Made by a program: the position numbers and the translations under genes
Origin: Candidatus Nomurabacteria bacterium
Lineage (GTDB): Bacteria > Patescibacteriota > Minisyncoccia > Phycocordibacterales > UBA9973
Length of the DNA: 64,000 bases
Direction of reading: 5' to 3'
Assembly: GCA_963832025.1 (NCBI GenBank)
Contig: CAWHSF010000003.1
Location: 143,665 to 207,664, forward strand
The notes under the pieces: generated by a model
The model's input: only the letters and a program-made list of their open reading frames with translations
Database searches by the model: none
What the model was told of the DNA's origin: nothing
Shown: one piece after another, positions 4,507 through 55,508 of the stretch
How positions within the stretch are numbered: position 1 is the stretch's first letter
Layout of the letters: each line of letters starts with the position of its first letter

Positions 4507-7500
4507 CTACTGCTCTATATACGTAGGTTTCATCTTGAATATAGAACACGAAGCAGTTGAGCCACTTGGCACACTGTCACAAATCCAAGTCCATTGTGAA
4601 GAGGTACTACTCTCACTAGAAGCATCTAATGTTCCTTGAGTACAAGTATTAATGGTTGTAGTAGAGCAAGAAACACTTCCTCCAGAAGGAGCTGCGTCTT
4701 GGCTAGCTGAACATATGCTGTCTGTGCCACTAGTTACGTGTAAACATTCCCAGTTTGCAGTTCCCCCTGGTGCTGGGAAAGAAATAACTGAAGGACTTTG
4801 GGTTCCTGACTCACAGAAAGTGTCAGAACCATAGCCCGGCCAATTGTAAGGGTAAGTTGTATTGTCTGCTGAACCACAAACTCCGTTAATAGAAGTTGCA
4901 GTAACACAAGTGCTACCATTCCAACTTGTGCCCGAAGTACAAGTGGCAGTCGATAAACTTGTCGCCAGTGATACAGCATTGTTATAAAGATAGAATGTCC
5001 TACCAGCATATGGAACAGCTAAGCCGTTTGCTGTGCCTGATTGAAAACTAGGACTGATTGTATTGGTTACATTTACGTTGGTCATTCCTGTCGCCGTAAT
5101 CGCAGTCGGAGTTCCGATTGGGTTAGTTATACTCCAGTTTAAGTTTACCGTACAAGTACTTGCTCCGGATAAAATGATACAGGAGGTGATGGGTGGAGTG
5201 AGGGTGCCGGACATTCCGACATTCCATTCGGAGAAGAAGAGCAAATACTTCCATTCCAACTTGTTCCCGAAGTACAAGTGGCTGTAGCTGAACTTGTAGC
5301 CAGTGATAGTGCATCATTGTAAAGATAGAATGTCCTACCTAGATATGGCACAACTAAACCGTTTGCTGTGCCTGATTGAAAACTAGGACTGATTGTATTG
5401 GTTACATTTACGTTGGTCATTCCTACTGCTGCAATCGCAGTCGGAGTTCCGATTGGGTTAGTTATACTCCAATTTAAGTTTACCGTGCAAGTACTTGCTC
5501 CGGATAGAATGATACAGGAGGAGGTGGGTGGAGTGAGGGTGCCGGTCATTACTAACTGACTAAACGTCGCGGTAACTGCTTTAGCTGCAGTCATGGTAAG
5601 AGAACATGTGCCTGTTCCGGTGCAAGCTCCAGTCCATCCGGTGAAGGTTGAGCCAGTGGTTGGGGTGGCGGTCAAAACTACTGCTGTGTTGTAGTTGTAA
5701 CTTTGAGAACAGTCAGCACCGCAACTGATACCGGCAGGACTACTGGTGACTGTTCCGGTGCCGGTGCCGGCAGGAGTGACAGTGAGAGCTTCTTGATTTG
5801 GAGAGCAGATAGTTCCGTTCCAAGTTGTGTTGGCGGCACAAGTTGCTGTAGCAACGCTGCTGTCGAGTTGAATAGCATCGTTGTAAAGATAGAATGTTCT
5901 ACCAGGATATGGCACAACTAAACCGGTTGCTGTGCCTGATTGAGGACTAGTTAAAGTTGTTGTTACATTTACGTTGGTCATTCCTGTCGCCGTAATCGCA
6001 GTCGGAGTTCCGATTGGGTTAGTTATACTCCAATTTAAGTTTACCGTACAAGTACTTGCTCCGGATAAGATCGTGCAAGAAATAGTCGCTGGAGTGAGCG
6101 TGCCGGTCATTTGAGTGAAGTTTGCAATCACCGTACAGTTGGCGGTAATTGCTCCGGTGGTATAAGTACTTCCAGACAATGTACCTCCACAAGTGCCGGT
6201 AGTTGTACCGATGGAGTAACCGGTACTGGGGGTGAGGGTGAAAGCTTTGTTGGAATCGTAATTAACTACTTGCACGTTACTTGGAGAGATGGTTCCACTA
6301 CCGGTTCCGACAGAGGGGGTGACGTTGTAGGTGTTGATTGTGAAGTTTGCAATCACCGTACAGTTGGCGGTAATTGCTCCCGTGGTGTAAGTACTTCCAG
6401 ATAGTGTACCTGCAGGACAAGTACCGGTAGTTGTACCGATGGAGTAACCGGTGCTTGCGGTGAGGGTGAAAGCTTTGGTGGAACCGTAATTAACTACTTG
6501 TGCGTTATTTGGAGAAATTGTTCCTCCGGTTCCGGCAGAAGGAGTGACGTTGTAGGTGTTGATTGTGAAGTTTGCAATCACCGTACAGTTGGCGGTAATT
6601 GCTCCCGTGGTGTAAGTACTTCCAGATAGTGTACCTGCAGGACAAGTACCGGTAGTTGTACCGATGGAGTAACCGGTGCTTGCGGTGAGGGTGAAAGCTT
6701 TGGTGGAACCGTAATTAACTACTTGTGCGTTATTTGGAGAAATTGTTCCCTCCGGTTCCGGCAGAAGGGGTGACGGTGTAGGTGTTGATTGTGAAGTTTG
6801 CAATCACCGTACAGTTGGCGGTAATTGCTCCCGTGGTGTAAGTACTTCCAGATAGTGTACCTGCAGGACAAGTACCGGTAGTTGTACCGATGGAGTAACC
6901 GGTACTTGCGGTGAGGGTGAAAGCTTTGGTGGAACCGTAATTAACTACTTGTGCGTTATTTGGAGAAATTGTTCCTCCGGTTCCGGCAGAGGGGGTGACG
7001 TTGTAGGTGTTGATTGTGAAGTTTGCAATCACCGTACAGTTGGCGGTAATTGCTCCCGTGGTGTAAGTACTTCCAGATAGTGTACCTGCAGGACAAGTAC
7101 CGGTAGTTGTACCGATGGAGTAACCGGTACTTGGGGTGAGGGTGAAAGCTTTGGTGGAACCGTAATTAACTACTTGTGCGTTATTTGGAGAAATTGTTCC
7201 TCCGGTTCCGGCAGAAGGAGTGACGGTGTAGGTGTTTAGCGTAAACGTCGCGGTAACTGCTTTAGCTGCAGTCATGGTAAGAGAACATGTGCCTGTTCCG
7301 GTGCAAGCTCCAGTCCATCCGGTGAAGGTTGAGCCAGTGGTTGGGGTGGCGGTCAAAACTACTGCTGTGTTGTAGTTGTAACTTTGAGAACAGTCAGCAC
7401 CGCAACTGATACCGGCAGGACTACTGGTGACTGTTCCGGTGCCGGTGCCGGCAGGAGTGACAGTGAGAGCTTCTTGATTTGGAGAGCAGATAGTTCCGTT

Positions 7501-8985
7501 CCAAGTTGTGTTGGCGGCGCAGGTACAATTAACAGTTAGGCCAGAACCGTTGGGAGAAGTCGGAACAAGCGATTTGGCATTATTGTAAAGATAGAAAGTT
7601 TTACCAGCATATGGGACAGTCGTTGGCACACTAGTTCCAGAATCTCCCAAAAAGACGTTTACACCAGAACTAGTTATAGCAGAACCATTTGGAACTTCTG
7701 GATTTGTAACATTCCAAGTTAAATTTACAGTACCACTACCAGAATTAGCTGGAACAGTACAAGCCGTAGCACTCATCGTACCCGACATAGTACCAACAAT
7801 AATAGTAAATGGTATTTGTGGGCCAAAAGCAGTGCTTCCATTAAACATCTGCCATATTTCTGTGTATGTCTTAGCGGCAGATGGAGCAGTTAAAGAACTT
7901 AAGGAAAAAGTTGTTGTTGCGTTAGAAGCAACATCGGCGCTACCACTAGTAGATTCTGTATATACTGCACTACAGTTGGTATTGCTGTTCCACGTTCCAC
8001 CACATCCAGCCTGACAGACATTGGAACTTGTCCCGCAACCTACGCTTCCATTAACAGTACATGAATTTGCGAGACCATTCCAGCTTCCGCCACACATTCC
8101 ACAATTACTAGCGTTAGCACTACAGTTAAAAGAACCACTAGAAGAACACGAACCCAAACACGATTGAGAGTTATATTTACACGTCTGAGTGGTTGTCTGA
8201 CTATATGGTATGGGATTCGGACTAGAACTAAAGCCTCCAGTAATATCTTTCAGTTTGATTGTGCTTGAATAATTTGTGATCGTGGCTGTACATGTGTCTC
8301 CTAAAGTTGTAGGACAAGAATAGAGACCATCAGTTGCTCCACAGTCTGATGATTTAGAAATCGATTTTTGGTCTGACACCCAATTAGGAGTTGCGCCAGT
8401 GCTGGTATTTTTGATAGTAAATATGTAAGGCCCACTTACTTGGCTTGTGTTCATCTGAGTCGGCATACTCGGAGAAAGTGGAGATACAAAAGAATCATTT
8501 AAGGTAGTTGATGGAGAGCCAAAAGATGCAGTACCGTCTGAAAGATAAGTAACAGAACCCCAAGGCGCATAACCTGGATATGGATTAGAATTTAAAGTAA
8601 AAGAATATGTTCCCTGCTCAGGATGATCACTTGTGCCACAATTATTATAACTTGAATTATAAGCCGTTTGTGTAATGGTAATATTACTAGAAGGAATACT
8701 TCCAGATACTCCATCAATTGTATATGAAAGATAACCACCCGACTCGAAGATGTCTAGTGGAGGACTTAATCCGAGTGTATTATCACATGTGACAGTTTGA
8801 ACGTTATAGCCACTTGAGAAAGTTCCAGAAATGGTAATACTGCTACTAGTAGAACTGGCACCCACGGTGACATTGGAAGTACAGCCACTGCCAGTGCATG
8901 ATGCTTTTGTCGTGGAAACATTAAAGAGAGCAAATAGAGCAATAACTGCTATAAGCAAACCAGAAACAAAAATTTTCTTTTTCAT
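4507..8985 (-). CDS. giant repeat-rich secreted surface protein (adhesin-like, InlB-B-repeat-like modules); reading frame interrupted twice
   Basis: Signal peptide MKKKIFVSGLLIAVIALFALF. Three tracked ORFs (6730..9021, 5145..6803, 4507..5277) join at protein-repeat level. They are broken by an extra C at 6748-6750 and an 8-bp tandem duplication at 5210-5225. The first and third ORFs share a frame (9021-5277=3744). Confidence 0.75.
5210..5225. repeat. perfect 8-bp tandem duplication (gacattcc x2) causing a frameshift in the surface protein gene
   Basis: Read directly. Deleting one unit restores ...CSSSPNGMSGTLTPPITSC..., which matches the other module junctions. Confidence 0.85.
5561..5837. 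repeat. 277-bp direct repeat, copy 1 (partner at 7242-7518)
   Basis: taaacgtcgcggtaactgctttagctgcagtcatgg...ccaagttgtgttggcggc appears identical by eye in both places. Confidence 0.85.
6115..7240. repeat. tandem array, 5 x 225 bp (75-aa module FTINTYxVTPSAGTGGTISPNNAQVVNYGSTKAFTL...CTVIAN)
   Basis: The marker gtgaagtttgcaatcaccg recurs at 6115, 6340, 6565, 6791 and 7016. The single 226-bp period contains the extra C. Confidence 0.9.
7242..7518. repeat. 277-bp direct repeat, copy 2
   Basis: See the partner at 5561-5837. Encodes the same ...EALTVTPAGTGTGTVTSSPAGISCGADC... module. Confidence 0.85.
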
Positions 8986-9139
8986 ATTTATTTTTTGATT
9001 AGTAAAAAAGATTAACTCCAATAATTATAATATATATAACAACTTAAGTAAAATATTTTGGTGTGTATAACCCATCTATGAACTTTTTTGAGCACCTTGT
9101 CTTGAAATAATTTTTATGATAGACTGCTTTATGTATGGA

Positions 9140-9190: not shown

Positions 9191-10408
9191 ATGTTGGACC
9201 TAAAAACATTTAAATCGGCCTTAGAGCAGTTAGAGGAAGAAAGGAAAATTCCAAAAGAAAAAATATTGGAAGCCATTGAGCAAGCGATGGCTGCAGCTTA
9301 TAAAAAAGATTACGGCAAGAAGGGGCAAATCATCCGCGCCAAGTTTGACCTGGACACAGGCAAAACAGATTTTTTTCAAGTCAAAATCGTGGTTGATGAA
9401 ACTATCGCTATTTTGGATCACGAAAATTCTCTCGGCCATAGCCAAATAGGCGAAACACAAAAAAAACACGAAGAAGAATATTCTGTAAAAGATGCGGGAG
9501 ATGAACGCGTACATTTTAATGCCGAACATCACATTCTGCTCGAAGACGCAAAAAAAATAAAAAAAGGGGTAGAACTCAATGATGAAATTATTTTTCCGTT
9601 GGAACAAAAAGATGATTACGGACGTATCGCTGCGCAAACTGCCAAGCAAGTCATCATTCAAAAAATCCGCGAAGCAGAACGCACTTCCATTATCGATGAA
9701 TATGGCACCAAAGAAGGTGAGATTATTTCCGGTGTCGTGCAAAAAGTTGAACGAGGAAATGTTTATGTCGATTTCAACCGAGCGACAGGTATTTTGCCGG
9801 CCGAAGAACAAATTCCCGGAGAATACTGGCAACGTGGTCAACGCATTAGAGCTTACCTATATAGCGTAGAAGATACACCGCGTGGCATAAATTTGCGCCT
9901 TTCTCGCACCCATCCGAAATTTATAGAACGTCTTTTTGCCATGGAAGCTCCAGAAATAGAAAATGGAGTCGTGGAAATAAAAGGAGTAGCCCGCGAAGCC
10001 GGAGCACGTTCAAAAATTTCAGTTTACTCCAGCGATGAGCATATTGATGCTGTCGGTTCTTGTGTCGGGCAAAAAGGCACCCGAGTAAATACTATCACCG
10101 GAGAACTGTCCGGAGAAAAAATTGATATCATCCCGTGGTCGGCAGATGCCAAACAATTTGTCGCAAGCGCTCTTTCTCCAGCCAAAGTTATTTCCATTGA
10201 AATGGATGAAGGCGAACACAAAGCAATAGTAGAAGTAGGAAACGACCAGCTTTCACTAGCCATCGGCAAGGGTGGACAAAATGTGCGCTTGGCGGCTAAA
10301 CTAACCGGATGGAGAATAGATATAAAAGGCGACGGAAAAGAAATGGCCACAACCAATGGAGATAAAGTAGAAGTGAAACCTGCCCACGCAGGTGAGAAAG
10401 AAGAATAA
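9191..10408 (+). CDS. nusA: transcription termination/antitermination factor NusA
   Basis: N-terminal domain, S1 and two KH regions (GxxGQNVRLAAKLTGW). Confidence 0.9.
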   Translation: MLDLKTFKSALEQLEEERKIPKEKILEAIEQAMAAAYKKDYGKKGQIIRAKFDLDTGKTDFFQVKIVVDETIAILDHENSLGHSQIGETQKKHEEEYSVKDAGDERVHFNAEHHILLEDAKKIKKGVELNDEIIFPLEQKDDYGRIAAQTAKQVIIQKIREAERTSIIDEYGTKEGEIISGVVQKVERGNVYVDFNRATGILPAEEQIPGEYWQRGQRIRAYLYSVEDTPRGINLRLSRTHPKFIERLFAMEAPEIENGVVEIKGVAREAGARSKISVYSSDEHIDAVGSCVGQKGTRVNTITGELSGEKIDIIPWSADAKQFVASALSPAKVISIEMDEGEHKAIVEVGNDQLSLAIGKGGQNVRLAAKLTGWRIDIKGDGKEMATTNGDKVEVKPAHAGEKEE

Positions 10409-12646: not shown

Positions 12647-13741
12647 ATGCAAATAAAAATAACAAAATTACCAAAAAGTGAAATAGAAATTGAAGGAGAG
12701 CTGGAAGCAGATATTTTTGAGACTTATTTTTCCAAAGCGGTAAAAAGAATCGGAGAAACAATAAAAATTGATGGCTTTCGCCCTGGAAAAATTCCAGAAA
12801 GCGTTTTGCTTTCCAAAGTCCCAGAATCTCAAATCTTAGAAGAGATGGCAGAGCTCGCTTTGAATGAACACTATCCTAAAATTATTGATGAAAATAAAAT
12901 TGACGCAATCAGTCGTCCGGAAATTTCTATCCTAAAACTAGCTAGAAAAAACCCGCTCGGTTTTAAAATCAAAACCGCAGTAATACCGGAGATGAAACTT
13001 CCTGACTACAAAAAAATTGCCAAGGAAATAATTTCTAAAATTACCGACGAAGAAAAAAATGTCGCAGTCACGGATGAAGATTTAGAAAATACTATAATGG
13101 ATATACGAAAATCTCGCGCTCCAAAAATACATATGGCAGAAGTGGCAGTCCAGACGTCCGACGTTAAAGATGCCCCAACGTCGGACGTCGAGAATACCGA
13201 AATCAAAACAGAAACCAAAGAAGAACTTCCCGAATTCAATGATGAATTTGTGCAGGCGCTCGGACCTTTTAAAGATGTTAAGGACTTTAAAGAAAAATTA
13301 AAGGAAAATCTTAAACTGGAAAAAGAAAATGCTCAAAAAGAAAAAACCAGAATAAAAATAATTGAAAAAATAATTGAGGAGAGCGCAATAGAGACGCCTG
13401 AAATTTTAATTGAAGTTGAGCTAGATAAAATTTTATATCGAATGGAATCAGATATTACCCAGATGGGTCTCAAGTTTGAAGATTATTTAAAACATCTTAA
13501 TAAAACAATTGATGATTTGAGAAAAGAATTTCGCGGAGATGCTGAGAAAAAAGCGAAACTTGCCCTTGTGTTAAATGAAATAGCAAAAGAGGAAAAAATT
13601 ACTGCCGATCCCGAACAAGTTGCACGCGAAGTCGCTGCCATTTTGGAACATTACAAGGAAGCGGACCCGGAACGCGCAGCAATGCACGCCGAGAACGTGC
13701 TCACCAACGAAAAAATCTTTCAGTTTTTGGAAAATCAATAA
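12647..13741 (+). CDS. tig: trigger factor
   Basis: N-terminal GFRPGKIP motif and overall TF architecture. PPIase region short or divergent. Confidence 0.8.
   Translation: MQIKITKLPKSEIEIEGELEADIFETYFSKAVKRIGETIKIDGFRPGKIPESVLLSKVPESQILEEMAELALNEHYPKIIDENKIDAISRPEISILKLARKNPLGFKIKTAVIPEMKLPDYKKIAKEIISKITDEEKNVAVTDEDLENTIMDIRKSRAPKIHMAEVAVQTSDVKDAPTSDVENTEIKTETKEELPEFNDEFVQALGPFKDVKDFKEKLKENLKLEKENAQKEKTRIKIIEKIIEESAIETPEILIEVELDKILYRMESDITQMGLKFEDYLKHLNKTIDDLRKEFRGDAEKKAKLALVLNEIAKEEKITADPEQVAREVAAILEHYKEADPERAAMHAENVLTNEKIFQFLENQ
13153..13189. repeat. family-A-like hairpin inside tig coding sequence
   Basis: Perfect 13-bp arms gacgtccgacgtt / aacgtcggacgtc, 11-nt loop. Translated as TSDVKDAPTSDV. 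Confidence 0.8.
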
Positions 13742-13744: not shown

Positions 13745-14662
13745 TTATAAACCAAACACGTAAAGAAATAACGCCATGCGCACATAGAGACCGTTTTGCG
13801 CTTGACGGAAGTAATCAGCGCGTGGGTCAGCATCAACCTCCAATTCAATCTCGTTTATTTTCGGCAAGGGATGCATGATGATTGCATTATTTTTCAAGTT
13901 TTTTAAGTGAGATTTTTTCAAAATAAATAAATCTTTGACTTTTTCATAGTCGGCAAGGTTTGCAAAACGTTCTTTCTGCACTCTGGTCATATAAAGCACA
14001 TCCAGGTCCGGTAAGGCTTCTTCTAAACTTTGCATCTCTTTGAATTCAACATTGGCATCTTTCAGTTCTTGAATAAATTCTTTCGGCAATTTTAATTCTT
14101 TCGGTGAAATAAAGTAAAATTTATTACCTTCGTAAAATCGCAAAAACGGAACGAGAGATTTTAATGTTCGACTGTTTAACAAATCTCCACCAAAGCCAAT
14201 ATTTAAATTGGTGAGTCGTCCATGCTCTTTTTTGATAGTATAAAGATCCAAAAGTCCTTGTGATGGATGTTGATTGGCTCCATCGCCAGCGTTGATTAAA
14301 GGTTTAGTAGCTACTTTGGAGGCATTTTCTAGGATACCTTCTTTAGGATGACGCATCACAATAACATCCGCATAAGCACAAAGCATTCTAGTGGTGTCCT
14401 CAATGCTTTCACCTTTATAGGACGAAGAATTAGCCGTGGCATTTTCTGCGGAAATAACTTGCGCCCCGAGTTTTAAGGCAGCTGTCTCAAAAGACAAACG
14501 AGTGCGGGTTGAAGGCTCAAAAAAAATACATGCCACAATCTTATCTGTTAATAATTTTTGTACTTTATTGCTTTTGCATTCTTGTTCCATCTTTTCTGCT
14601 GTAGCTAGAATCTTTTCTACATCTTCTTTTTTAAATTGCCTGGCTGAAATAATGTTTTTCAT
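13745..14662 (-). CDS. pyrB: aspartate carbamoyltransferase catalytic subunit
   Basis: FFEPSTRTRLSFE and HPSQGLLD motifs. Confidence 0.9.
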   Translation of the reverse strand: MKNIISARQFKKEDVEKILATAEKMEQECKSNKVQKLLTDKIVACIFFEPSTRTRLSFETAALKLGAQVISAENATANSSSYKGESIEDTTRMLCAYADVIVMRHPKEGILENASKVATKPLINAGDGANQHPSQGLLDLYTIKKEHGRLTNLNIGFGGDLLNSRTLKSLVPFLRFYEGNKFYFISPKELKLPKEFIQELKDANVEFKEMQSLEEALPDLDVLYMTRVQKERFANLADYEKVKDLFILKKSHLKNLKNNAIIMHPLPKINEIELEVDADPRADYFRQAQNGLYVRMALFLYVFGL

Positions 14663-17600
14663 AAATATTCTTTGTAAGACTTAATTTCTAAATTTTCAAC
14701 CGGGTAATGCGCTAGGGCTTTAATAAAAGCGCGGGCTAGATGTAAATCGGTAAATAAAGGAATCTGGCTATCAACGGTGGCTCGACGGATATGGAAGCCG
14801 TCACTCTCCACATGCCCTCCTTTTTCTTTTCCATTTTCTATTGTATTTCCTGTCTTGCTCAAAGAAACAACAAAGGAAACTTTTTTGCTTTCTATTATAT
14901 TAATCGCATTCGGAAGTTGTTGATATGCTTTGCGAACTGTTTCACACTTTATATTATACTTCTTTAAAAACAGAGCAGTGGTGTCTGTCGCAAAAATATT
15001 ATAGCCCATGGAAATTAAAATATTGGCTGCTTCCAGAAATTTAGCTTTATTTAATTCTCCGCCCAGTGAAAGTAAGACATTTTTATTTTTAAAATCAAAT
15101 TTATTGGTACTCAAAATTGATTTTAATAAAGCTTCATCGTAATCTCTCCCAAAACAAGCCGCCTCGCCGGTTGAAGACATTTCCACTCGCAATATTGGGT
15201 CGGCGCCAAGCAATCTGGAAAAGGAAAATTGTGGACTTTTTACAATCACGCTTTTCGGATAGATAAATTGATGGGGCTTGGCTTTCCCAAAAAAACTATC
15301 AACGGCAAATTCCGCAAAGTTCGTATCCATGGCTTTTGATAAAAGCGGGAAAGTACGACTGGCTCGCACATTTACTTCAATCACAAAAGGACGATTGTCC
15401 TTTACTAAAAATTGAATATTAAATGGTCCGGTTATGGAAAGTTCCTGCGCAATTTTTTTGGCAATTTCTCTCAATTGAAACTCGGTGGAAGCATATACTC
15501 TCTGTGATGGATAGACAATTGTCGCATCTCCGGAGTGTACTCCGGCATTTTCAACATGTTCTGAAATACCATAAATCATCAATGCGCCGTTTTGCGCGAC
15601 CGCATCAAATTCAAGTTCCTTGGCACTTTCTATATATTTAGAAATAGTTACGGGATGAAGCGGAGAAAGCACGGCAGCTTTGTTTATAAAATTATATAAT
15701 TGTTCCTTGTTGTAACACACTCGCATGGCCGAACCGGAAAGAACATAAGAGGGCCTAACCAAAACCGGGAAACCTTCGCGCTCAGTAAATTTTTCGGCTT
15801 CTTGACGCGAGGTAAAACTCTGCCATTTTGGTTGCAAGATGTTCAGTTTGTCCAGTAAAGCAGAAAACAAATTGCGGTCTTCTGCCCTGTCAATATCTAC
15901 CGCCTTGGTTCCTAAAATATTAAAACCGGCTTCTGCAATTTGCTTGGCTAAATTATTTGGCCTTTGTCCGCCGACAGAAATAATTAGTCCATCCGCTTTC
16001 TCAAATTCAAAAATATCTGCGACCGTTTCAAAAGATAAGTTTTCGAAATACAATCTATCTGACATATCATAATCAGTCGAAACAGTTTCCGGATTGCAAT
16101 TTATGATGATGGATGCTTTTTTGTGTCTACGAAGTGCAAGCCCGGCATGTACACATGACCAATCAAATTCTACGGAAGAACCAATATGATATGGCCCACT
16201 ACCCAACACAACAATTGCATTCTTTCCTATTGGAGAGACATCATTGTGCATGCCGTGATATGTCAGATATAAATAATTGGTTTTAGCTGGCACCTCTCCC
16301 GCCAAAGTATCAATCGCAAAAATAAATGGTTTAACTCCCAAACTGATACGTAATTTACGAATTTCCAATTCTTTTTTACCACACAAAGTTCCAATTTTTT
16401 TATCCGAAAAACCATTCTGTTTTAAAAGGAGGATACTTTCTTTATTAAAAGAATGTAAACGATTTTTGATAAAATTTTTCTCTATATTTACGATATTTTC
16501 TATTCTATATAAAAACCACAAATCGATGCCTGTTATTTTATGAATTTCTTTCACTGTCATGCCTTTTTTTATACTTTCGGCCACTGCAAATATTCTCCTA
16601 GGGGTTGGCGTTTTCAGAAAGAAATTTAGTTCCTGCTTATTTTTAAAACCATTGTCAGTGACACTTTCGGTGTTGCCGGATTGCATGCGAATTGCTTTCC
16701 CTAGTGCCTCTTCAAAACTTCGCCCGATTCCCATCACTTCCCCGACGGATTTCATAGCACTACCTATCTTTTCCACTGCGCCGACAAATTTTACTAAATC
16801 CCATCGAGGTATTTTTACCACCACGTAGTCCAGCGCCGGTTCAAAAAAACTTTGGGTAACTTTTGTGATTTTGTTCTCTATCTCAAGCAGAGTTTTCCCC
16901 AAAGCAAGTTTTGCGGCAACATAAGCCAGCGGATATCCGGTAGCTTTGGATGCCAAAGCGCTTGAGCGAGAAAGACGCGCATTTACTTCAATCACAAAAT
17001 AATCTACTCCACCCTTCGCCCTCCCCTTATTAAGGGGAGGGTTGGGAGGGGTCGGATTTAAGGCAAATTGTACGTTGCACTCACCGACTATTTTTAAACT
17101 TTGCACAATTTTAATGCTTGCTTCTCGCAATCTATGATATTCTTCGTTGTTTAATGTTTGGCTCGGAGCAACAACAATCGAATCTCCGGTATGAATGCCA
17201 AGTGGGTCTAAGTTTTCCATATTACAAACCGTCACAGTGTTGCCAGAAGTATCACGCACCACCTCGTATTCAATTTCTTTAAAATGGTGCAAGTACTTTT
17301 CAATTAAAACCTGCGGGGAAACAGACAATGCTCCTTTGACGATTTCCTCCAGTTCTTTTTCGTCATGGGCAACTCCGGACTTTTGCCCACCCAAAGCAAA
17401 AGCCGCCCGCACCATCAGAGGAAAACCGATTTTTTTCGCAACAACTTGCGCTTCTTTTAAATTCACAGCGCTACCGGAAGGTGGCACCGGAACATCAATA
17501 CTTCTTAGGTGTCTCGCAAACTCTTCTCGGTCTTCGGTTAAAATGATGGAAGAAATGGGACTGCCTAAAACTTCTATCCCGTATTTTTTAAAAACACCTT

Positions 17601-17922
17601 TTTTGAAAAGCGCCAACCCGCAATTTAAAGCTGTTTGGCCACCGAAAGAAAGCATGATACCGTCTGGTCGTTCTTTTTCTATGACTTTTTCCACAAAATA
17701 TTCGTCCACCGGCAAAAAATAAACTTGGTCGGCCAGAGTTTTGGAAGTTTGAAAAGTGGCAATGTTTGGATTCACTAAAATAATCTCCTTCTTTTCTTCT
17801 TTCAAGGCTTTAATTGCTTGACTGCCGGAATAATCAAATTCACCGGCCTCGCCGATTTTCAAAGCGCCTGAACCCAGGATTAATATTTTTTTCATTAATT
17901 TTAATTTTTTATTTTTCTCCAT
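14659..17922 (-). CDS. carB: carbamoyl-phosphate synthase large subunit
   Basis: 1087 aa, duplicated ATP-grasp halves, SRSSALASKATGYP motif, C-terminal MGS-like domain. The start could also be 17895. Confidence 0.92.
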   Translation of the reverse strand: MEKNKKLKLMKKILILGSGALKIGEAGEFDYSGSQAIKALKEEKKEIILVNPNIATFQTSKTLADQVYFLPVDEYFVEKVIEKERPDGIMLSFGGQTALNCGLALFKKGVFKKYGIEVLGSPISSIILTEDREEFARHLRSIDVPVPPSGSAVNLKEAQVVAKKIGFPLMVRAAFALGGQKSGVAHDEKELEEIVKGALSVSPQVLIEKYLHHFKEIEYEVVRDTSGNTVTVCNMENLDPLGIHTGDSIVVAPSQTLNNEEYHRLREASIKIVQSLKIVGECNVQFALNPTPPNPPLNKGRAKGGVDYFVIEVNARLSRSSALASKATGYPLAYVAAKLALGKTLLEIENKITKVTQSFFEPALDYVVVKIPRWDLVKFVGAVEKIGSAMKSVGEVMGIGRSFEEALGKAIRMQSGNTESVTDNGFKNKQELNFFLKTPTPRRIFAVAESIKKGMTVKEIHKITGIDLWFLYRIENIVNIEKNFIKNRLHSFNKESILLLKQNGFSDKKIGTLCGKKELEIRKLRISLGVKPFIFAIDTLAGEVPAKTNYLYLTYHGMHNDVSPIGKNAIVVLGSGPYHIGSSVEFDWSCVHAGLALRRHKKASIIINCNPETVSTDYDMSDRLYFENLSFETVADIFEFEKADGLIISVGGQRPNNLAKQIAEAGFNILGTKAVDIDRAEDRNLFSALLDKLNILQPKWQSFTSRQEAEKFTEREGFPVLVRPSYVLSGSAMRVCYNKEQLYNFINKAAVLSPLHPVTISKYIESAKELEFDAVAQNGALMIYGISEHVENAGVHSGDATIVYPSQRVYASTEFQLREIAKKIAQELSITGPFNIQFLVKDNRPFVIEVNVRASRTFPLLSKAMDTNFAEFAVDSFFGKAKPHQFIYPKSVIVKSPQFSFSRLLGADPILRVEMSSTGEAACFGRDYDEALLKSILSTNKFDFKNKNVLLSLGGELNKAKFLEAANILISMGYNIFATDTTALFLKKYNIKCETVRKAYQQLPNAINIIESKKVSFVVSLSKTGNTIENGKEKGGHVESDGFHIRRATVDSQIPLFTDLHLARAFIKALAHYPVENLEIKSYKEYL
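17009..17055. repeat. family-C palindromic element inserted in frame in carB
   Basis: Contains cctcccctta t taaggggagg. The coding strand gives PTPPNPPLNKGRAKGG between the conserved NVQFALNP and VIEVNAR motifs. Confidence 0.8.
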
Positions 17923-29810: not shown

Positions 29811-29856
29811 TCCAGACGTTGGACGTCTGTGTTCTTACAGACGTCCAACGTCTGGA
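29811..29856. repeat. family-A nested palindrome
   Basis: Arms tccagacgttggacgtctg / cagacgtccaacgtctgga (19 bp, 8-nt loop). Each arm is itself palindromic (cagacgt tgg acgtctg). Confidence 0.9.
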
Positions 29857-32542: not shown

Positions 32543-32604
32543 CCTCCAGACGTCCAACGTCTGGAGGAGATGTTGGACACCTGCTTTGCAGATGTCCAAC
32601 ATCT
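32543..32604. repeat. two adjacent family-A hairpins upstream of metK
   Basis: cctccagacgt cca acgtctggagg (32543-32567). agatgttggaca ... tgtccaacatct (32568-32604); the latter is an inverted relative of 43673-43709. Confidence 0.9.
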
Positions 32605-32622
32605 AGTGTTATACTCAAAACT

Positions 32623-37450: not shown

Positions 37451-37543
37451 GGCGTGCTTTTTAGAAAGCCTTGCGTAGGCGGACGCGCCGAGCAGTTCGC
37501 TGGCGTAGCAACGCCAGATAGATTGCTTTATAAAAAGCACGCC
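37451..37543. repeat. family-B palindromic element (diverged copy)
   Basis: Outer arms ggcgtgctttttagaaagc / gctttataaaaagcacgcc, core ccttgcgtaggcgg..gccgagcagttcgc, inner hairpin ctggcgt agca acgccag. Confidence 0.85.
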
Positions 37544-37890: not shown

Positions 37891-37980
37891 ATTGTTGTTT
37901 TAGAAAGCCTTGCGCAGGCGGGTAGCCGAGCAGTTCGCTCCGCAAGCTTGCGGAGATAGATTGCTTTATAAAATAACAAT
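37891..37980. repeat. family-B palindromic element (diverged copy)
   Basis: Arms attgttgttttagaaagc / gctttataaaataacaat, core ccttgcgcaggcgggtagccgagcagttcgc, inner perfect palindrome ctccgcaagcttgcggag. Confidence 0.85.
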
Positions 37981-38023: not shown

Positions 38024-38977
38024 ATGGTCACGGAAATGGACAAACTGAAGCGTGAATTTTTGGAATACATTGAAATTGAAAAAGGTAGAGCTATCCGCAC
38101 GGTGGAAAATTATGAACATTATCTCACTGTCTTTTTTGAATTTGCAAAAATTAAAAGTCCAAGTGATATTACCGATGCCTCGGTACGAGAATTTCGTCTG
38201 TGGCTAAACAGACAATCCACTGGCAATAATAGGTTGACTGGGAACACTGTTTCCAAAAAAACTCAAAATTATTACATGATAGCTCTGCGAGTTTTTTTGA
38301 AGTATTTAAACAAACGTGGTATTAAATCCATGCCGAGAGACCAAATAGAATTGGCCAAAACTCCAGAGCGTTCGCTCGACCTCATCTCCCCCGAAGAACT
38401 GACTAGATTACTAAAATCCCCTAGCGGAAATGATATAAAAGACCTACGCGACAAGGCTATTCTTGAGTTGCTTTTCTCTACTGGCCTGCGCGTATCCGAA
38501 CTCTGTTCACTAACCAATGATTTTGATTTTAAAAGAGACGAAATTTCTATCCGCGGAAAAGGTGGCAAGGTACGCGTCGTTTTTATTTCCGACGAAGCAA
38601 AAACCGCTGTAAGAAAATATCTGGACGCGCGGAAGGATATGAATGATGCGCTATTTGTTCAAGTAGATACTGAAAAGTTTCCCCAAAAAGAGAATATGAG
38701 AAACAAAAAAGAACTAAAGGATAAAAACGGAGCACTGACCAGAAGATCGATCGAAAGAATTGTGAAACAACACGCAATCAAAGCTGGCATCACAAAAAAA
38801 GTCACTCCGCACGTCATTCGCCACTCTTTTGCCACCGATTTATTAAACAACGGAGCCGACATTCGTTCGGTGCAAGTAATGCTTGGCCATTCAAGTATTT
38901 CCACTACACAAATTTATACCCACGTGACCGACAAACAGTTACGTGAAATACATAAAAAATTTCACAACAAAAACTAG
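38024..38977 (+). CDS. tyrosine recombinase XerC/XerD family
   Basis: RHSFATDLL and LGHSSISTTQIYTH catalytic motifs. The start may be the ATG at 38036. Confidence 0.85.
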   Translation: MVTEMDKLKREFLEYIEIEKGRAIRTVENYEHYLTVFFEFAKIKSPSDITDASVREFRLWLNRQSTGNNRLTGNTVSKKTQNYYMIALRVFLKYLNKRGIKSMPRDQIELAKTPERSLDLISPEELTRLLKSPSGNDIKDLRDKAILELLFSTGLRVSELCSLTNDFDFKRDEISIRGKGGKVRVVFISDEAKTAVRKYLDARKDMNDALFVQVDTEKFPQKENMRNKKELKDKNGALTRRSIERIVKQHAIKAGITKKVTPHVIRHSFATDLLNNGADIRSVQVMLGHSSISTTQIYTHVTDKQLREIHKKFHNKN

Positions 38978-41479: not shown

Positions 41480-41507
41480 TTGACAATATTTTTACAATTG
41501 CTATAAT
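41480..41507 (+). promoter_or_regulatory. consensus promoter upstream of ORF 41598
   Basis: TTGACA (41480-41485), 16-nt spacer, TATAAT (41502-41507). Confidence 0.55.
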
Positions 41508-41557
41508 GTACGAGTAAATTTAAGTTCCTTGGCAACAAGTCTGTAAAACCGAAAGGT

Positions 41558-41582
41558 TCCCTCATCCGAAAGGAGAGGTTGG
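41558..41582. repeat. family-C palindromic element, non-coding copy in a 5' leader
   Basis: ccctcatcc gaa aggagagg ttggg. Compare carB ccctcccctt..aaggggagggttggg. Confidence 0.6.
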
Positions 41583-41597
41583 GCTGGAGAAAAGACA

Positions 41598-41897
41598 GTG
41601 AAGATCATCTTGTGTGGTCTAGACAATAATAGTTTTAATGAACCAGAAACTGATGTTGTTAGAGTCATTGAGATCTCTGGCTGCTGCTATGCAACTTTTT
41701 TGGCAGACGGTGAAGCAGAGAAAAAAATGGCCGAACATGGGCTAGAGTGGAATTTTAATTTCCCCTCTCCAGCAAGCATGCTAGGTAAGTTTGTAATAAG
41801 AGGTCTTGAGTTGAAGGGTCATTATGAGTCAGCTATTGAAATTCTTAAAAAGGCCCTGGGCGAAGACACAAAAGTCGATCTATCTCGTGTCGAGTAG
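41598..41897 (+). CDS. hypothetical protein (99 aa, GTG start)
   Basis: ORF between a consensus promoter and a terminator-like hairpin. No motif recognised. Confidence 0.45.
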   Translation: MKIILCGLDNNSFNEPETDVVRVIEISGCCYATFLADGEAEKKMAEHGLEWNFNFPSPASMLGKFVIRGLELKGHYESAIEILKKALGEDTKVDLSRVE

Positions 41898-54563: not shown

Positions 54564-55508
54564 ATGCAACATAAAGCAAAAAAAACATTGGGGCAAAACT
54601 TTTTAAAATCGGAGCTAGCTCTGCGAAAGATTATTGAAGTCGGTGAAATAAAACCTGATGATATTATTTTAGAAATTGGTCCAGGAAAAGGTGCGCTGAC
54701 AAAAAAAATTTTAGAAAAAGCTGGAACGGTAATCGCTGTTGAAAAAGACCGTGAGTTGATAGAATTTTTGAAAACAAAATTTGCAAAAGAAATCACGACA
54801 AAAAAAATAATTTTGGTTGAAGATGATATTTTAAAATTTAATCTGGAGCAAGATATTCTCGAGCGAACCCTTGGTAGGAGCGACGGCGACGGACAGAGAA
54901 AATTTTCAGCAGAAAATTTTCGTGGTGAGTCCGAGAATATTTTGCTCCCGATTTCCTATAAAATTATTGCAAACATTCCATACAATATTACCGGCGCAAT
55001 CTTGAAAAGATTTTTGACAGAAAAAAACCAGCCGGAGCGCATGGTCTTGATGGTCCAAAACGAAGTGGCAAAAAGAATCGTGGCTTCCGACAAAAAAGAA
55101 AGTGTTCTTTCCATCTCCGTGAAAGCTTACGGTGAACCAAAAATGGTGATGAAGGTGCCAGCTCGATATTTTTCTCCAGAACCCAAGGTGGACTCCGCCA
55201 TAATTATTATAAAAAATATTTCTCGCAGACTTTTTGAAAAAAATAATACCTCACCCCAACCCTCTCCTTGCCAAGGAGAGGGGGGCAACGGGACTGTCCA
55301 AAATAAAATTTTGGACAGTCAGGCATTTGAAGAAAAATTTTGGGAAATAGTAAAAACCGGGTTTGCTCATAAGAGAAAAAAACTATCTGGCAACTTAAAA
55401 TCTCTCAAAAATTACGAAGTTTTAACAAAAAATGACTTTATGCAAACTTTGGGGAATAAAAGAGCGGAAGATTTGACGCTGGAGGATTGGATTTCGTTGA
55501 CTAAATAG
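54564..55508 (+). CDS. rsmA: 16S rRNA (adenine1518/1519-N6)-dimethyltransferase
   Basis: LGQNFL, EIGPGKGALT and ANIPYNIT motifs. Start trimmed to the ATG at 54564. Confidence 0.9.
   Translation: MQHKAKKTLGQNFLKSELALRKIIEVGEIKPDDIILEIGPGKGALTKKILEKAGTVIAVEKDRELIEFLKTKFAKEITTKKIILVEDDILKFNLEQDILERTLGRSDGDGQRKFSAENFRGESENILLPISYKIIANIPYNITGAILKRFLTEKNQPERMVLMVQNEVAKRIVASDKKESVLSISVKAYGEPKMVMKVPARYFSPEPKVDSAIIIIKNISRRLFEKNNTSPQPSPCQGEGGNGTVQNKILDSQAFEEKFWEIVKTGFAHKRKKLSGNLKSLKNYEVLTKNDFMQTLGNKRAEDLTLEDWISLTK
54853..54940. repeat. family-B-like element in frame inside rsmA/ksgA
   Basis: Terminal inverted repeats atattctcg / cgagaatat. Interior aaaattttcagcagaaaattttc matches the cagcagaa(a)tt signature of the intergenic copies. 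Encodes ILERTLGRSDGDGQRKFSAENFRGESENI. Confidence 0.7.
55248..55320. repeat. compound insertion in rsmA/ksgA: family-C palindrome plus a 13-bp-stem hairpin
   Basis: ccctctccttg c caaggagaggg (55260-55282) and gactgtccaaaat aaa attttggacagtc (55292-55320). Encodes TSPQPSPCQGEGGNGTVQNKILDSQ. Confidence 0.8.

What the first reader, a model, noticed from the sequence alone, without database searches (positions are those of the whole stretch)
17009..17055. A palindromic element sits in frame inside carB, with the same element in ksgA and in a non-coding leader (RPE-like behaviour)
The carB coding strand reads ccgacccctcccaaccctccccttaataaggggagggcgaagggtgg, giving PTPPNPPLNKGRAKGG. This lies where CarB proteins have only a few residues, between the conserved NVQFA.NP and IE.N.R motifs.

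ksgA carries the related acctcaccccaaccctctccttgccaaggagaggggggcaacggg at 55248-55292, in the same orientation relative to its coding strand but in a different codon phase.

A third copy (ccctcatccgaaaggagaggttggg, 41558-41582) is non-coding.

Both host ORFs stay open, so each insertion length is a multiple of 3. In-frame spread of a selfish palindromic repeat through essential genes is established for Rickettsia palindromic elements. I know of no description for this kind of genome.
Basis: partly seen in the sequence, partly recalled or inferred. Interest (0 to 1): 0.75.

Follow-up and report, generated by a model that had tools for sequence, protein, structure and literature searches.

The report
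Triplex-motif mini-repeats inside CPR genes
Two essential genes of a tiny-genome (CPR/Paceibacteria) bacterium each carry, in frame, a copy of a short GC-rich hairpin repeat of the old 'BoxC / intrastrand-triplex motif' kind; that repeat is strictly intergenic in E. coli, but in this clade it sits mostly inside genes, at loops that have been hit again and again.

Summary
Two of the three reported copies are real; the third is not. carB (17008-17052) and ksgA (55248-55328) each hold a perfect 10-bp C/T-arm and G/A-arm hairpin, CCCTCYCCTT-NNN-AAGGRGAGGG. About 0 are expected by chance. The reading frames stay open. The '41558' copy fails a profile search and a folding test.

These are lineage-specific insertions. 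The closest CarB ortholog (88% identity) has the ancestral 10-aa loop, and 48 of 121 KsgA orthologs have the empty site.

The element itself is not new. With its matched third arm (GGGAGGGG / GGGGTGAGG) it has the architecture of the BoxC / PIT / 'TM' intrastrand-triplex repeats (Holder 2015). The same core with conserved flanks occurs in cyanobacteria, Bacteroidota, Chloroflexota, Proteobacteria, CPR and viral contigs.

What is new is where it sits. In Paceibacteria, 33 of 49 copies lie deep inside ORFs, which matches coding density. In cyanobacteria the figure is 8 of 77, and E. coli copies are reported as always intergenic. The CarB loop carries at least 16 different insertion alleles and needs at least 28 gain/loss events. 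KsgA, trigger factor, the CarA tail, NusA, TopA and Dus are also hosts. Other mini-repeat families behave the same way.

So the behaviour is RPE-like, but the element is not an RPE. It is a new variant of a known kind. How it moves is unresolved: there is no target duplication and no transposase nearby.

The parts
14659..17922 (-). carB, the carbamoyl-phosphate synthase large subunit (1087 aa); host gene
   Evidence: ORF list. Pfam CPSase_L_D2 at 1e-98 and further CPSase domains. 76-88% identical to 120 Paceibacteria CarB proteins.
17008..17052 (-). Lineage-specific segment in carB: 15 codons (TPPNPPLNKGRAKGG) that replace 6 ancestral loop codons, net +9 aa. This is the triplex-motif-type element.
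   Evidence: Alignment to human CPS1 and E. coli CarB. The closest ortholog P0001/L003 has AATCCAGAATCCGAAAATGGGAAAGTAGAT at this place. The ancestral 10-aa loop is present in about 35 loci.
17019..17041 (.). Inner perfect hairpin CCCTCCCCTT-ATT-AAGGGGAGGG (10-bp stem; one arm C/T only, the other G/A only)
   Evidence: DNA fold -16.5 kcal/mol, z = -3.6.
17044..17051 (+). Third arm GGGAGGGG on the template strand of carB. It is a perfect mirror of the G arm, giving 8 G.G:C or A.A:T triads.
   Evidence: Three-block scan, 0 mismatches.
17007..17014 (-). Second third-arm-like block, GGGTGGAG on the coding strand (1 mismatch). This element therefore has an arm on both sides, which is rare elsewhere (1 of 135 copies).
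54564..55508 (+). ksgA/rsmA, the 16S rRNA dimethyladenosine transferase; host gene. The ORF is open from 54504, and the database protein P0121 starts at Met21.
   Evidence: Pfam RrnaAD at 3e-53. PDB KsgA matches. P0121 is 100% identical.
55248..55328 (+). Inserted segment in ksgA: 27 codons (TSPQPSPCQGEGGNGTVQNKILDSQAF), net +25 aa. It lies in the linker between the Rossmann domain and the C-terminal helical domain.
   Evidence: The baseline is 30 aa in 48 of 121 orthologs. The empty-site DNA is seen in L207. In the AF2 model residues 226-249 are coil with pLDDT < 50.
55249..55257 (-). Third arm GGGGTGAGG, read on the template strand of ksgA (CCTCACCCC on the coding strand). It matches the G arm through T.A:T and A.A:T triads.
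   Evidence: Three-block scan, 0 mismatches. nhmmer E = 1.3e-11 on the minus strand.
55260..55282 (.). Inner perfect hairpin CCCTCTCCTT-GCC-AAGGAGAGGG. Compared with the carB copy it has a compensated C-G to T-A change in the stem.
55292..55320 (.). Second perfect hairpin in the same insert: GACTGTCCAAAAT-AAA-ATTTTGGACAGTC (13-bp stem)
   Evidence: A degraded homologue is present in ksgA of another species (L206).

Best explanation
What it is. Each site holds a copy of a short (about 45 nt), non-coding-type, GC-rich repeat of the BoxC / PIT / 'TM' class. The repeat has a homopyrimidine arm, a loop, the complementary homopurine arm, and then a second G-rich arm that mirrors the first. A single strand of it can fold into a hairpin and possibly an intrastrand triplex.

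What is shown. Copies of this family have entered protein-coding DNA of a Paceibacteria (CPR) genome. They persist where three conditions hold: the length change is a multiple of three, the loop carries no in-frame stop, and the site is a surface turn or an inter-domain linker. In carB the site is the beta-hairpin turn between NVQFALNP and DYFVIEVN. In ksgA it is the linker before the C-terminal domain.

What is inferred. The element is transcribed and translated with the gene, and adds a Pro/Ser/Gly/Glu/Arg-rich, probably disordered, peptide with no function of its own.

Hotspots. The same permissive sites have been hit many times independently in related lineages, so they look like hotspots. 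I read this mainly as a filter of purifying selection acting on a high insertion rate.

Mobility (inferred, least certain). Copies are most likely made by replication- or repair-associated template switching or gene conversion at hairpin or triplex-prone DNA, or by a trans-acting single-strand (HUH-type) enzyme encoded elsewhere. A classical DDE transposase is unlikely. The reasons are that there is no target-site duplication, the junctions vary, target codons are replaced rather than just split, copies form arrays and hybrids, and no transposase lies nearby.

The confidence of 0.75 applies to the identity of the element and to its being a tolerated in-frame insertion. For the proposed mode of copying alone I would give about 0.35.
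For: Identity and significance: exactly 2 hits against 0 expected. The three-block triplex rule is met only at these two sites. The profile HMM gives E = 1e-11 and 1e-9.

Family: the published TM-ECO copies (CCCTCTCCC-loop-GGGAGAGGG-TTA-GGGTGAGGG) have the same architecture (PMC4666352). The third arm covaries with the stem: C/G stems go with GGG[TA]GGGG in 58 cases, with GGGTGAGG in 1, and have no arm in 7. T/A stems go with GGGTGAGG in 42 cases, with the other arm type in 0, and have no arm in 27.

Insertion rather than ancestral loop: the closest CarB (88% identity) and most orthologs keep the 10-aa loop. An empty ksgA site is seen in L207 and in 48 of 121 orthologs.

DNA element rather than peptide: the two copies are read in different codon phases.

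Repeated independent events: at least 16 alleles at 3 positions within the loop. Fitch parsimony needs at least 28 changes with an insert-free root. Insert-bearing P0067 has insert-free neighbours at distance 0.059.

Coding residence in the clade: 33 of 49 copies lie in long ORFs. With carB excluded it is 18 of 26, which does not differ from the 75% coding density (p = 0.50). In cyanobacteria it is 8 of 77 (p = 2e-20). Fisher's test between the clades gives 2e-8. Other hosts are trigger factor, NusA, TopA, Dus and CarA.

Permissive sites: the ksgA inserts are coil with pLDDT < 50 in an otherwise confident model. The carB insert is coil between two strands and aligns to a 6-7 residue turn in solved CPS structures.

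Mobility of mini-elements in the clade: a different 55-nt element in the window's uvrD is 96% identical to one inside ksgA of another species and 90% identical to an intergenic copy.

No TSD. No transposase in the window. Copies are present on viral contigs.
Against: Only two copies lie in the 64-kb window, and they differ from each other in the stem variant, the loop and the flanks. Recent mobility in this particular genome is therefore not shown, and I could not read the rest of the genome.

Translation of the inserts is inferred from open frames only.

The strict TM-ECO consensus (9-nt blocks) is not met.

Triplex formation is untested here, and Holder et al. found no in vivo evidence for it.

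My idea that the arms make the element intrinsically ORF-compatible is only weakly borne out: 3.39 versus 3.14 open frames of 6.

The ksgA insert is shared, in degraded form, by about 25 orthologs. It is therefore old and vertically inherited, yet both of its hairpins are still perfect here. That could hint at maintenance by selection or by conversion.

The CarB AF2 model is poor overall (mean pLDDT 61).

The Paceibacteria census comes from loci chosen around carB and uses a crude ORF criterion.
Confidence: 0.75

Rival explanations
1. Local de novo origin. The hairpins were not inserted from a pre-existing repeat. They grew in place from the Pro/Gly-rich turn (CCN...GGN codons) by slippage and quasi-palindrome correction, and converged on a low-complexity homopyrimidine/homopurine palindrome.
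For: The ancestral loop AAY-CCN-AAY-CCN-AAA-AAT-GGN-GAR is itself a weak C-rich / A-loop / G-rich proto-hairpin. The new segment replaces it rather than splitting it. The sequence is of low complexity. There is no TSD and no transposase.
Against: The ksgA, trigger-factor, NusA, TopA and Dus sites have no such proto-hairpin; the empty ksgA site is AT-rich. The flanking arms (ACCTCACCCC-AA- and -TT-GGGGTGAGG) and loop spacing match copies in distant phyla base for base. The same 22 nt (CCGACCCCTCCCAACCCTCCCC) occur in the CarB of a non-sister lineage (L002). Other mini-elements are 90-96% identical between different genes of different species.
Confidence: 0.1
2. A selected nucleic-acid signal. 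The hairpin or triplex is kept inside the genes because it does something at the DNA or RNA level, such as transcription pausing, mRNA stability, translation pacing, or a recombination or replication signal.
For: Both hairpins in the old ksgA insert are still perfect here, while a relative's copy has decayed. The two window copies differ by a compensated stem change (C-G to T-A). A conserved hairpin recurs at the carA/carB junction in 5 loci. The ksgA region-1 insert is 94% identical at the DNA level between genomes whose KsgA proteins are 68% identical.
Against: Presence and absence are polymorphic among close relatives, with very different sequences, numbers and lengths at the same loop. No function was found for the family in E. 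coli: no promoter, terminator or polymerase effects (PMC4666352). The host genes are functionally unrelated.
Confidence: 0.1
3. An ancestral or functionally selected protein loop, that is, not an insertion of a DNA repeat at all.
For: Pro/Gly-rich loops can be functional. About 30% of CarB orthologs have an enlarged loop here.
Against: The root state is the 10-aa loop, which is conserved down to relatives at 55-60% identity and resembles the E. coli loop. The enlarged loops are unrelated in length and sequence. The same DNA is read in different frames in carB and ksgA. The models give low confidence and coil there.
Confidence: 0.03
4. The segment is removed or bypassed and not translated, by an intron-like or translational-hop mechanism.
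For: CPR genomes are known for introns in rRNA and tRNA genes (titles). The inserts are strongly structured.
Against: At 45-81 nt they are far too small for group I or II introns. Every loop allele recovered is a multiple of three and free of stops, which removal would not require. This set is biased towards intact genes, because it was found by in-frame translation and in protein databases.
Confidence: 0.03
5. An assembly or sequencing artefact.
For: The uvrD gene in the same window has two frameshifts at A-runs that could be assembly errors.
Against: The identical CarB protein with the insert is on a Logan assembly of run ERR11523672 (L001). I do not know whether that run is the window's own read set, so its independence is not established. 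The identical KsgA is in NCBI/ENA (P0121). Dozens of other assemblies show the same kind of insert.
Confidence: 0.01

Closest known systems
BoxC / PIT elements / TM-ECO intrastrand triplex motifs (Bergler and Bachellier, 1990s; Hoyne & Maher 2000, 2002; Holder et al. 2015, PMC4666352)
   Same: Same three-block architecture and nearly the same sequence. E. coli type A is CCCTCTCCC-TTGA-GGGAGAGGG-TTA-GGGTGAGGG. The ksgA copy on the minus strand is CCCTCTCC-TTGGCAA-GGAGAGGG-TT-GGGGTGAGG. The third arm obeys the purine-motif rule. Both are multi-copy, occur across phyla, have no associated transposase, have no known function, and lie in loci that vary between relatives.
   Different: The blocks are 8 nt, not 9, and the strict TM-ECO pattern is not matched. 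The E. coli copies are reported as always intergenic, whereas here and in related Paceibacteria most copies are inside ORFs and in frame. The carB copy has an arm on both sides. The hosts are CPR bacteria, which that literature does not cover.
Rickettsia palindromic elements (RPE; Ogata et al. 2000; also Wolbachia). Recalled from my own knowledge and cited in papers returned.
   Same: Selfish-looking palindromic repeats inserted in frame into housekeeping genes of a reduced genome. They are lineage-specific, sit at permissive surface positions, and are also found in non-coding DNA.
   Different: RPEs are roughly 100-150 bp, AT-richer, and specific to Rickettsiales. These elements are about 45 nt, GC-rich homopurine/homopyrimidine, and shared across phyla. 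No sequence relationship was tested.
Intragenic GTAG/CGTC-tagged REPs (Di Nocera et al. 2013, PMC3733652)
   Same: Palindromes of 20-40 bp, normally intergenic, that in some species lie entirely within ORFs of known proteins, singly or as dimers, and encode 20-30 extra residues. CGTC REPs likewise lack a dedicated transposase.
   Different: The triplex-motif element has no GTAG or CGTC tag. The window's second palindrome family (CAGACGTCCAACGTCTG, in frame in trigger factor) contains CGTC, but I did not compare it with the published CGTC family consensi. The fraction of copies inside genes is far higher here.
Cyanobacterial small dispersed repeats and MITEs such as Nezha (Elhai et al. 2008; Zhou et al. 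2008). Recalled from memory; the Elhai paper was not in the searchable library.
   Same: Very small (21-27 nt or more), highly repeated, nested elements. Cyanobacteria hold very many copies of exactly this core.
   Different: Whether the cyanobacterial copies found here correspond to a named SDR family was not tested. There they are almost all intergenic (8 of 77 in ORFs).

Membership tests
BoxC / PIT / TM intrastrand-triplex repeats (broad class) | Three consecutive blocks on one strand: a C-rich arm, the complementary G-rich arm, and a second G-rich arm that mirrors the first (G.G:C, A.A:T and T.A:T triads), separated by short loops | tested here: met
   carB plus strand: CCCTCCCC-7-GGGGAGGG-2-GGGAGGGG, 0 mismatches. 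ksgA minus strand: CCCTCTCC-7-GGAGAGGG-3-GGGTGAGG, 0 mismatches. 0 hits in 30 shuffles.
BoxC / PIT / TM intrastrand-triplex repeats (broad class) | The third arm covaries with the stem, as the triplex rule predicts | tested here: met
   Across 135 cross-phylum copies: C/G stems have GGG[TA]GGGG in 58, GGGTGAGG in 1, no arm in 7. T/A stems have GGGTGAGG in 42, the other arm type in 0, no arm in 27.
TM-ECO (enterobacterial subfamily, strict pattern of Holder et al.) | CCCTCNCCC N3-6 GGGNGAGGG N3 GGGNGAGGG (9-nt blocks) | tested here: not met
   The regex finds 0 matches in the window and 0 in the Paceibacteria loci. The blocks here are 8 nt.
BoxC / PIT / TM intrastrand-triplex repeats (broad class) | Intergenic location (reported as 'always' in E. 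coli K-12) | tested here: not met
   Both window copies are inside ORFs. 33 of 49 Paceibacteria copies are deep in long ORFs.
BoxC / PIT / TM intrastrand-triplex repeats (broad class) | Many dispersed copies within one genome | tested here: inconclusive
   2 copies in this 64-kb window. 49 distinct copies in 955 kb from many related genomes. The rest of this genome could not be read.
BoxC / PIT / TM intrastrand-triplex repeats (broad class) | The single strand forms a stable triplex in vitro (CD/NMR) | not testable with these tools
   Only hairpin folding could be computed.
Rickettsia palindromic elements (RPE) | In-frame, lineage-specific insertion into conserved protein genes | tested here: met
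Rickettsia palindromic elements (RPE) | Element of about 100-150 bp belonging to one of the RPE sequence families | tested here: not met
   The measured size is 45 nt in carB and 81 nt (a composite) in ksgA. The RPE size comes from established knowledge. Sequence comparison with RPE consensi was not done.
REP / REPIN (RAYT-mobilised) | A GTAG (or CGTC) tetranucleotide tag at one end of the palindrome | tested here: not met
   No tag belongs to either TM copy. The GTAG 3' of the carB copy is the native Val-Asp codons, which are also present in the empty allele.
REP / REPIN (RAYT-mobilised) | An associated Y1 (RAYT / IS200-like) transposase gene | tested here: inconclusive
   None among the 42 of about 45 window ORFs of at least 150 aa that I scanned. 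The last three, at 59503-63456, were not scanned, and the rest of the genome was not available.
MITE (DDE-transposase dependent) | Terminal inverted repeats flanked by a target-site duplication | tested here: not met
   Comparing empty and filled sites at carB, ksgA and L170 shows no duplication. Target codons are replaced.

The most novel reading that the evidence does not exclude
Paceibacteria (and perhaps CPR bacteria generally) carry an active, horizontally circulating set of structured mini-elements of 25-90 nt. The set includes the BoxC/triplex-motif family, GACGTC-type palindromes, and at least two further families seen in uvrD and ksgA. These elements insert into coding DNA as readily as into spacers, by a hairpin- or triplex-dependent mechanism that leaves no target duplication and needs no cis-encoded transposase. 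If so, they would be a main source of loop and linker evolution in the proteins of these minimal genomes. The many empty/filled site pairs in metagenomes would then make the 30-year-old question of how BoxC-type repeats spread directly testable.
Probability: 0.3. Interest if true: 0.8.

Novelty: new variant of a known kind. Interest (0 to 1): 0.6.

Why it matters
BoxC / PIT / TM repeats have been known for about 30 years, yet they have no known function or mode of spread, and they are described as intergenic.

Here the same kind of element is tolerated, and apparently keeps arriving, inside essential genes of ultra-small CPR genomes. That gives three things:
1. A natural map of insertion-tolerant loops in conserved enzymes such as CarB, KsgA, trigger factor, NusA and TopA.
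2. Many independent pairs of empty and filled sites, from which junction rules and hence the insertion mechanism could be worked out.
3. A possible explanation for part of the odd length variation and low-complexity 'PSPxxGEG'-type segments in CPR proteins, which can confuse annotation, alignment and structure prediction.

The conceptual precedent already exists (RPEs and intragenic REPs). This extends a known phenomenon to a new element family and a new clade. It is not a new principle.

Tried and rejected
1. First pattern search used a 4-nt loop and found nothing, because the loop is 3 nt. Corrected.
2. Rfam on the whole window found only 4 tRNAs. No known RNA family covers any of the sites or the 41.5-kb leader.
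3. The 'third copy' at 41558-41582 is rejected.
4. The idea that homopyrimidine/homopurine arms make the element intrinsically stop-free and so pre-adapted to ORFs: the stems cannot encode stops, but whole 45-nt elements are barely more open than random 45-mers (3.39 versus 3.14 of 6 frames). It is at most a minor factor.
5. The idea that CCN/GGN (Pro/Gly) codons give microhomology for targeting fits the CarB loop but not the AT-rich ksgA empty site or the trigger-factor linker. I keep it only as speculation.
6. A transposase in the neighbourhood: none among the 42 window ORFs scanned. There is only a Xer-type integrase at 38024-38977.
7. Exact look-up of the source contig through P0121 failed. 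The CarB look-up returned only a 9-kb Logan contig, so a whole-genome copy count was not possible.
8. The full-length CarB AF2 model is of low quality (pLDDT 61). I used it only for the local strand-coil-strand topology and ran no fold searches.
9. Literature searches for CPR plus in-frame palindromes, and the 2024 pan-prokaryote MITE survey, returned nothing relevant. The Elhai 2008 SDR paper is not in the searchable library.
Full report
**1. What is in the sequence**

The window is 39% GC. It comes from a Patescibacteria (CPR) genome of the Paceibacteria/Nomurabacteria type: CarB is 76-88% identical to 120 proteins that carry such names.

carB is the 1087-aa ORF 14659-17922 on the minus strand. 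ksgA is the ORF 54504-55508 on the plus strand, and database entry P0121 starts at Met21.

The quoted sequences are present at the stated coordinates. Each contains a perfect 10-bp hairpin in which one arm is C/T only and the other is G/A only:
- carB: CCCTCCCCTT-ATT-AAGGGGAGGG at 17019-17041
- ksgA: CCCTCTCCTT-GCC-AAGGAGAGGG at 55260-55282

The degenerate pattern has exactly these two hits in 64 kb and none in 100 shuffles. The hairpins fold far better than shuffled sequence, with z = -3.6 for carB and -6.7 to -7.0 for ksgA.

The core starts at codon position 3 in carB and at position 1 in ksgA. The same DNA therefore gives NPPLNKGR in one gene and PSPCQGEG in the other. This is a nucleic-acid element, not a conserved peptide.

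- A profile HMM built from 101 oriented elements recovers the carB and ksgA sites (E = 1e-9 and 1e-11) but not this one, even at E <= 100.
- Its fold is indistinguishable from shuffles.
- It lies in the leader between a TTGACA-17-TATAAT site and a 99-aa ORF.

**2. These are insertions**

*carB.* Against human CPS1 and E. coli CarB, the segment falls in a turn of 6-7 residues between the NVQFA strand and the IEVN strand. Within the clade the ancestral state is a 10-aa loop, L-N-P-x-P-K-N-G-x-L. It is kept in about 35 of the 80 orthologous loci I fetched, down to relatives at 55-60% identity. The closest ortholog (P0001, 88% identity) reads AATCCAGAATCCGAAAATGGGAAAGTAGAT at this place. In the window, 15 new codons (17008-17052) replace 6 ancestral ones, for a net gain of 9 aa.

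*ksgA.* The baseline between NISRKxF and EEKFWEI is 30 aa in 48 of 121 orthologs. L207 shows the AT-rich empty site. The window has 81 extra nucleotides (55248-55328). They hold the triplex-motif element plus a second perfect 13-bp hairpin at 55292-55320. About 25 orthologs share a related insert (TSPQPSPYKGEGGNGTVQNK), and the DNA of one of them (L206) is a decayed version of both hairpins. The ksgA insertion is therefore older than the carB one.

*Structure.* AlphaFold models place the ksgA inserts in coil with pLDDT < 50 within an otherwise confident fold; the second one lies in the inter-domain linker. The carB insert is coil between two strands, but that model is poor overall.

**3. What the element is**

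These came from Cyanobacteria, Bacteroidota/Ignavibacteria, Armatimonadota, Chloroflexota, Proteobacteria, a leptospire, several Patescibacteria and one archaeon.

The flanks are conserved too, in two forms:
- ACCTCACCCC-NN-core-NN-GGGGTGAGGT
- ACCCCACCC-TAA-core-TTA-GGGTGGGGT

The flanking arm is normally on one side only, and it covaries with the stem variant. C/G stems have GGG[TA]GGGG in 58 cases, GGGTGAGG in 1, and no arm in 7. T/A stems have GGGTGAGG in 42 cases, the other arm type in 0, and no arm in 27.

A full-text search for the arm sequence led to Holder et al. 2015 (PMC4666352). This is the architecture of BoxC / PIT / 'TM-ECO' repeats: a C-rich arm, a loop, a G-rich arm, a short loop, and a second G-rich arm able to form G.G:C, T.A:T and A.A:T triads.

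According to that paper:
- E. coli K-12 has 23 copies, always intergenic, and not on transposons, phages or plasmids.
- They have no promoter or terminator activity.
- They form a triplex in vitro but without in vivo evidence.
- Their loci vary between strains.
- Related G/C-rich motifs are abundant in cyanobacteria.

The window's elements satisfy the three-block rule perfectly:
- carB plus strand: CCCTCCCC-7-GGGGAGGG-2-GGGAGGGG
- ksgA minus strand: CCCTCTCC-7-GGAGAGGG-3-GGGTGAGG

They do not match the strict 9-nt TM-ECO pattern. In both genes the G-rich three-block reading is on the template strand.

The core also occurs on 34 viral-contig stretches, and 31 of those 39 copies have the third arm.

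**4. What is unusual: where it sits in this clade**

*The CarB loop.* At the DNA level, the CarB loop of relatives carries arrays of one to four such hairpins. They begin right after the Asn-Pro codons, or a few codons later in some alleles. I count at least 16 distinct alleles. On a tree built with the loop masked, 36 of 121 proteins have an enlarged loop. Parsimony needs at least 28 changes with an insert-free root, and some insert-bearing proteins have insert-free neighbours at about 94% identity. More distant CPR relatives carry other palindrome families at the same loop.

*Other recurrent sites.* These include:
- the last ~15 codons of carA;
- the trigger-factor linker;
- the KsgA linker, which holds several unrelated insert types;
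- single cases in NusA, topoisomerase I and Dus, and one inside CarA.

*Census.* The table counts perfect C/T-arm hairpins with a stem of at least 7 bp. 'In a long ORF' means a stop-free frame extends at least 120 nt on both sides.

| Data set | Copies in a long ORF | Share of bases so covered | Test |
|---|---|---|---|
| Paceibacteria, 955 kb | 33 of 49 | 75% | - |
| Paceibacteria, excluding carB +/- 200 nt | 18 of 26 | 75% | p = 0.50 against density |
| Cyanobacteria, exact-core copies | 8 of 77 | 61% | p = 2e-20 against density |
| Other phyla | 10 of 41 | 76% | - |

Fisher's test between Paceibacteria (carB excluded) and cyanobacteria gives p = 2e-8.

In this clade the element therefore shows no avoidance of coding DNA, unlike everywhere else it has been described.

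**5. The phenomenon is wider than this family**

- The window's trigger factor carries, in frame, a 13-bp perfect hairpin of a second family (GACGTC-type). That family otherwise occurs as intergenic pairs downstream of genes.
- Compared with its L207 ortholog, the window's UvrD has two more in-frame inserts of 25 and 32 aa. Similar peptides occur as inserts in KsgA of other species.
- The DNA of the first uvrD insert is 96% identical over 54 nt to a segment inside ksgA of another species (L206), and 90% identical to an intergenic copy in L169. The host proteins are only about 67% identical. This is direct evidence that mini-elements move between genes and genomes in this clade.

**6. How it most likely works**

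*Shown.* These are lineage-specific, frame-preserving insertions of a dispersed triplex-motif-type repeat. They sit at a turn and at a linker. Comparable events recur independently at the same permissive sites. There is no target-site duplication, and target codons are replaced. No transposase is encoded among the 42 window ORFs I scanned.

*Inferred.*
- The insert is translated as a flexible Pro/Ser/Gly/Glu/Arg-rich loop and is nearly neutral.
- The 'hotspots' are mostly what purifying selection leaves behind from a high rate of insertion into a genome with very little spacer DNA.
- Copies arise either by template switching or gene conversion at stalled forks or during repair at hairpin/triplex-prone DNA, or through a trans-acting single-strand DNA enzyme encoded elsewhere.

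I cannot tell these last two apart with the data in hand.

*Rivals.* De novo local growth, a selected DNA/RNA signal, a functional protein loop, removal before translation, and an assembly artefact are each given their evidence in the rival-explanations section of this report. The perfectly preserved hairpins in the old ksgA insert are the main point in favour of some maintenance by selection or conversion.

**7. Comparison with what is known, and verdict**

In behaviour this resembles Rickettsia palindromic elements and the intragenic GTAG/CGTC REPs of Di Nocera et al. 2013. In sequence and architecture it belongs to the broad BoxC / PIT / TM class, though not to the strict enterobacterial subfamily.

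I found no report of this family inside genes, nor of in-frame palindromic repeats in CPR bacteria. The searchable library is incomplete.

Verdict:
- Novelty: a new variant of a known kind.
- Interest: moderate to high (0.6). It rests mainly on the clade-wide coding residence, the multi-allele hotspots, and the chance they give to work out how these old, enigmatic repeats spread.

Noticed in passing
window 13153-13189 (inside trigger factor, 12647-13741 +): A perfect 13-bp hairpin, GACGTCCGACGTT-N11-AACGTCGGACGTC, lies in frame in the trigger-factor linker (peptide VQTSDVKDAPTSDVE). Orthologs carry either this palindrome type (L145, L134) or triplex-motif-type inserts (L200, L129, L147, L140, L166) at the same linker.
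   Followed up: partly
window 29811-29856, 32544-32605, 43672-43710, 55511-55556: A second palindrome family (CAGACGTCCAACGTCTG) occurs as inverted pairs just downstream of genes. 13 matches are found against 0.04 expected. It contains CGTC and may be a REP- or terminator-like family. Its function and mobility are unknown.
   Followed up: partly
window about 54860-54945 (ksgA codons about 119-148): A further insert of about 87 nt (29 aa) in ksgA (LERTLGRSDGDGQRKFSAENFRGESENIL) is present in about 90 of 121 orthologs and absent in about 30. It has an outer stem (ATATTCTCG / CGAGAATAT) and two GAAAATTTTC palindromes. Its DNA is 94% identical to L207, although the two KsgA proteins are only 68% identical. 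The conservation is unexplained.
   Followed up: partly
window about 52511-52590 and about 53393-53490 (uvrD/pcrA): There are two in-frame inserts relative to the L207 ortholog, of +25 aa and +32 aa. Insert 1 DNA is 96% identical to a segment inside ksgA of another species (L206 493-546) and 90% identical to an intergenic copy (L169 7509-7567). Insert 2 looks like an ~80-nt element closed by the stem TTTTTGCGGGGTC / GACCTCGCAAAAA with two inner hairpins. Similar peptides occur as inserts in KsgA of other species (P0159, P0224).
   Followed up: partly
window 53690-53860: uvrD/pcrA is split into two ORFs (52268-53773 and 53858-54391) by two apparent frameshifts, one of them at an A-run. The L207 ortholog is an intact 647-aa gene. 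This is either a pseudogene or an assembly error.
   Followed up: partly
L003 2097-2118; L127 2620-2641; L160 7826-7847; L162 726-747; L200 9934-9956 (also L004 17, L005 1373, L152 33, L162 9924, L168 1343): The extreme 3' end of carA, at the carA/carB junction, is a second recurrent site. Several loci share nearly the same hairpin, CCTCCCCCT-ACGT-AGGGGGAGG, followed by AGGAGGGGG. The window's own carA has no such copy.
   Followed up: no
L005 759-809: In the Nomurabacteria genome GCA_000997645.1, carA is called as two genes (273-809 and 803-1423). The break is next to a small C/G-arm hairpin at 759-775, so an insertion may have split the gene at the domain boundary.
   Followed up: no
L208-L241 (IMG/VR contigs): The exact 23-nt core occurs on 34 viral-contig stretches, up to 5 copies in 7.3 kb (L209). 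31 of the 39 copies have the matching third arm. Viruses could carry the family between hosts. The hosts of these contigs are not known.
   Followed up: partly
window 9191-10408 (nusA): The NusA N-terminal domain spans residues 7-164 but matches only 118 profile positions, which suggests an extra segment of about 40 aa. NusA orthologs in L169 and L200 carry triplex-motif-type hairpins.
   Followed up: no
window 5632-5795 and 7313-7476: Identical GC-rich stretches occur in two adjacent large genes (5145-6803 and 6730-9021, both with a divergent InlB B-repeat domain). This looks like a recent tandem duplication or gene conversion.
   Followed up: no
window 37463-37521 and 37902-37957: Two similar GC-rich segments (AGAAAGCCTTGCG.AGGCGG...GCCGAGCAGTTCGCT...) lie in the spacer between the NYN-domain gene and the Xer-type integrase gene (38024-38977). 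Their nature is unknown.
   Followed up: no
window 41480-41897: A strong sigma-70-like promoter (TTGACA-17-TATAAT) is followed by a leader of about 90 nt and a 99-aa ORF (41598-41897) with no family assigned. The 550-aa Cys-rich ORF downstream (42015-43667) has no Pfam match.
   Followed up: no
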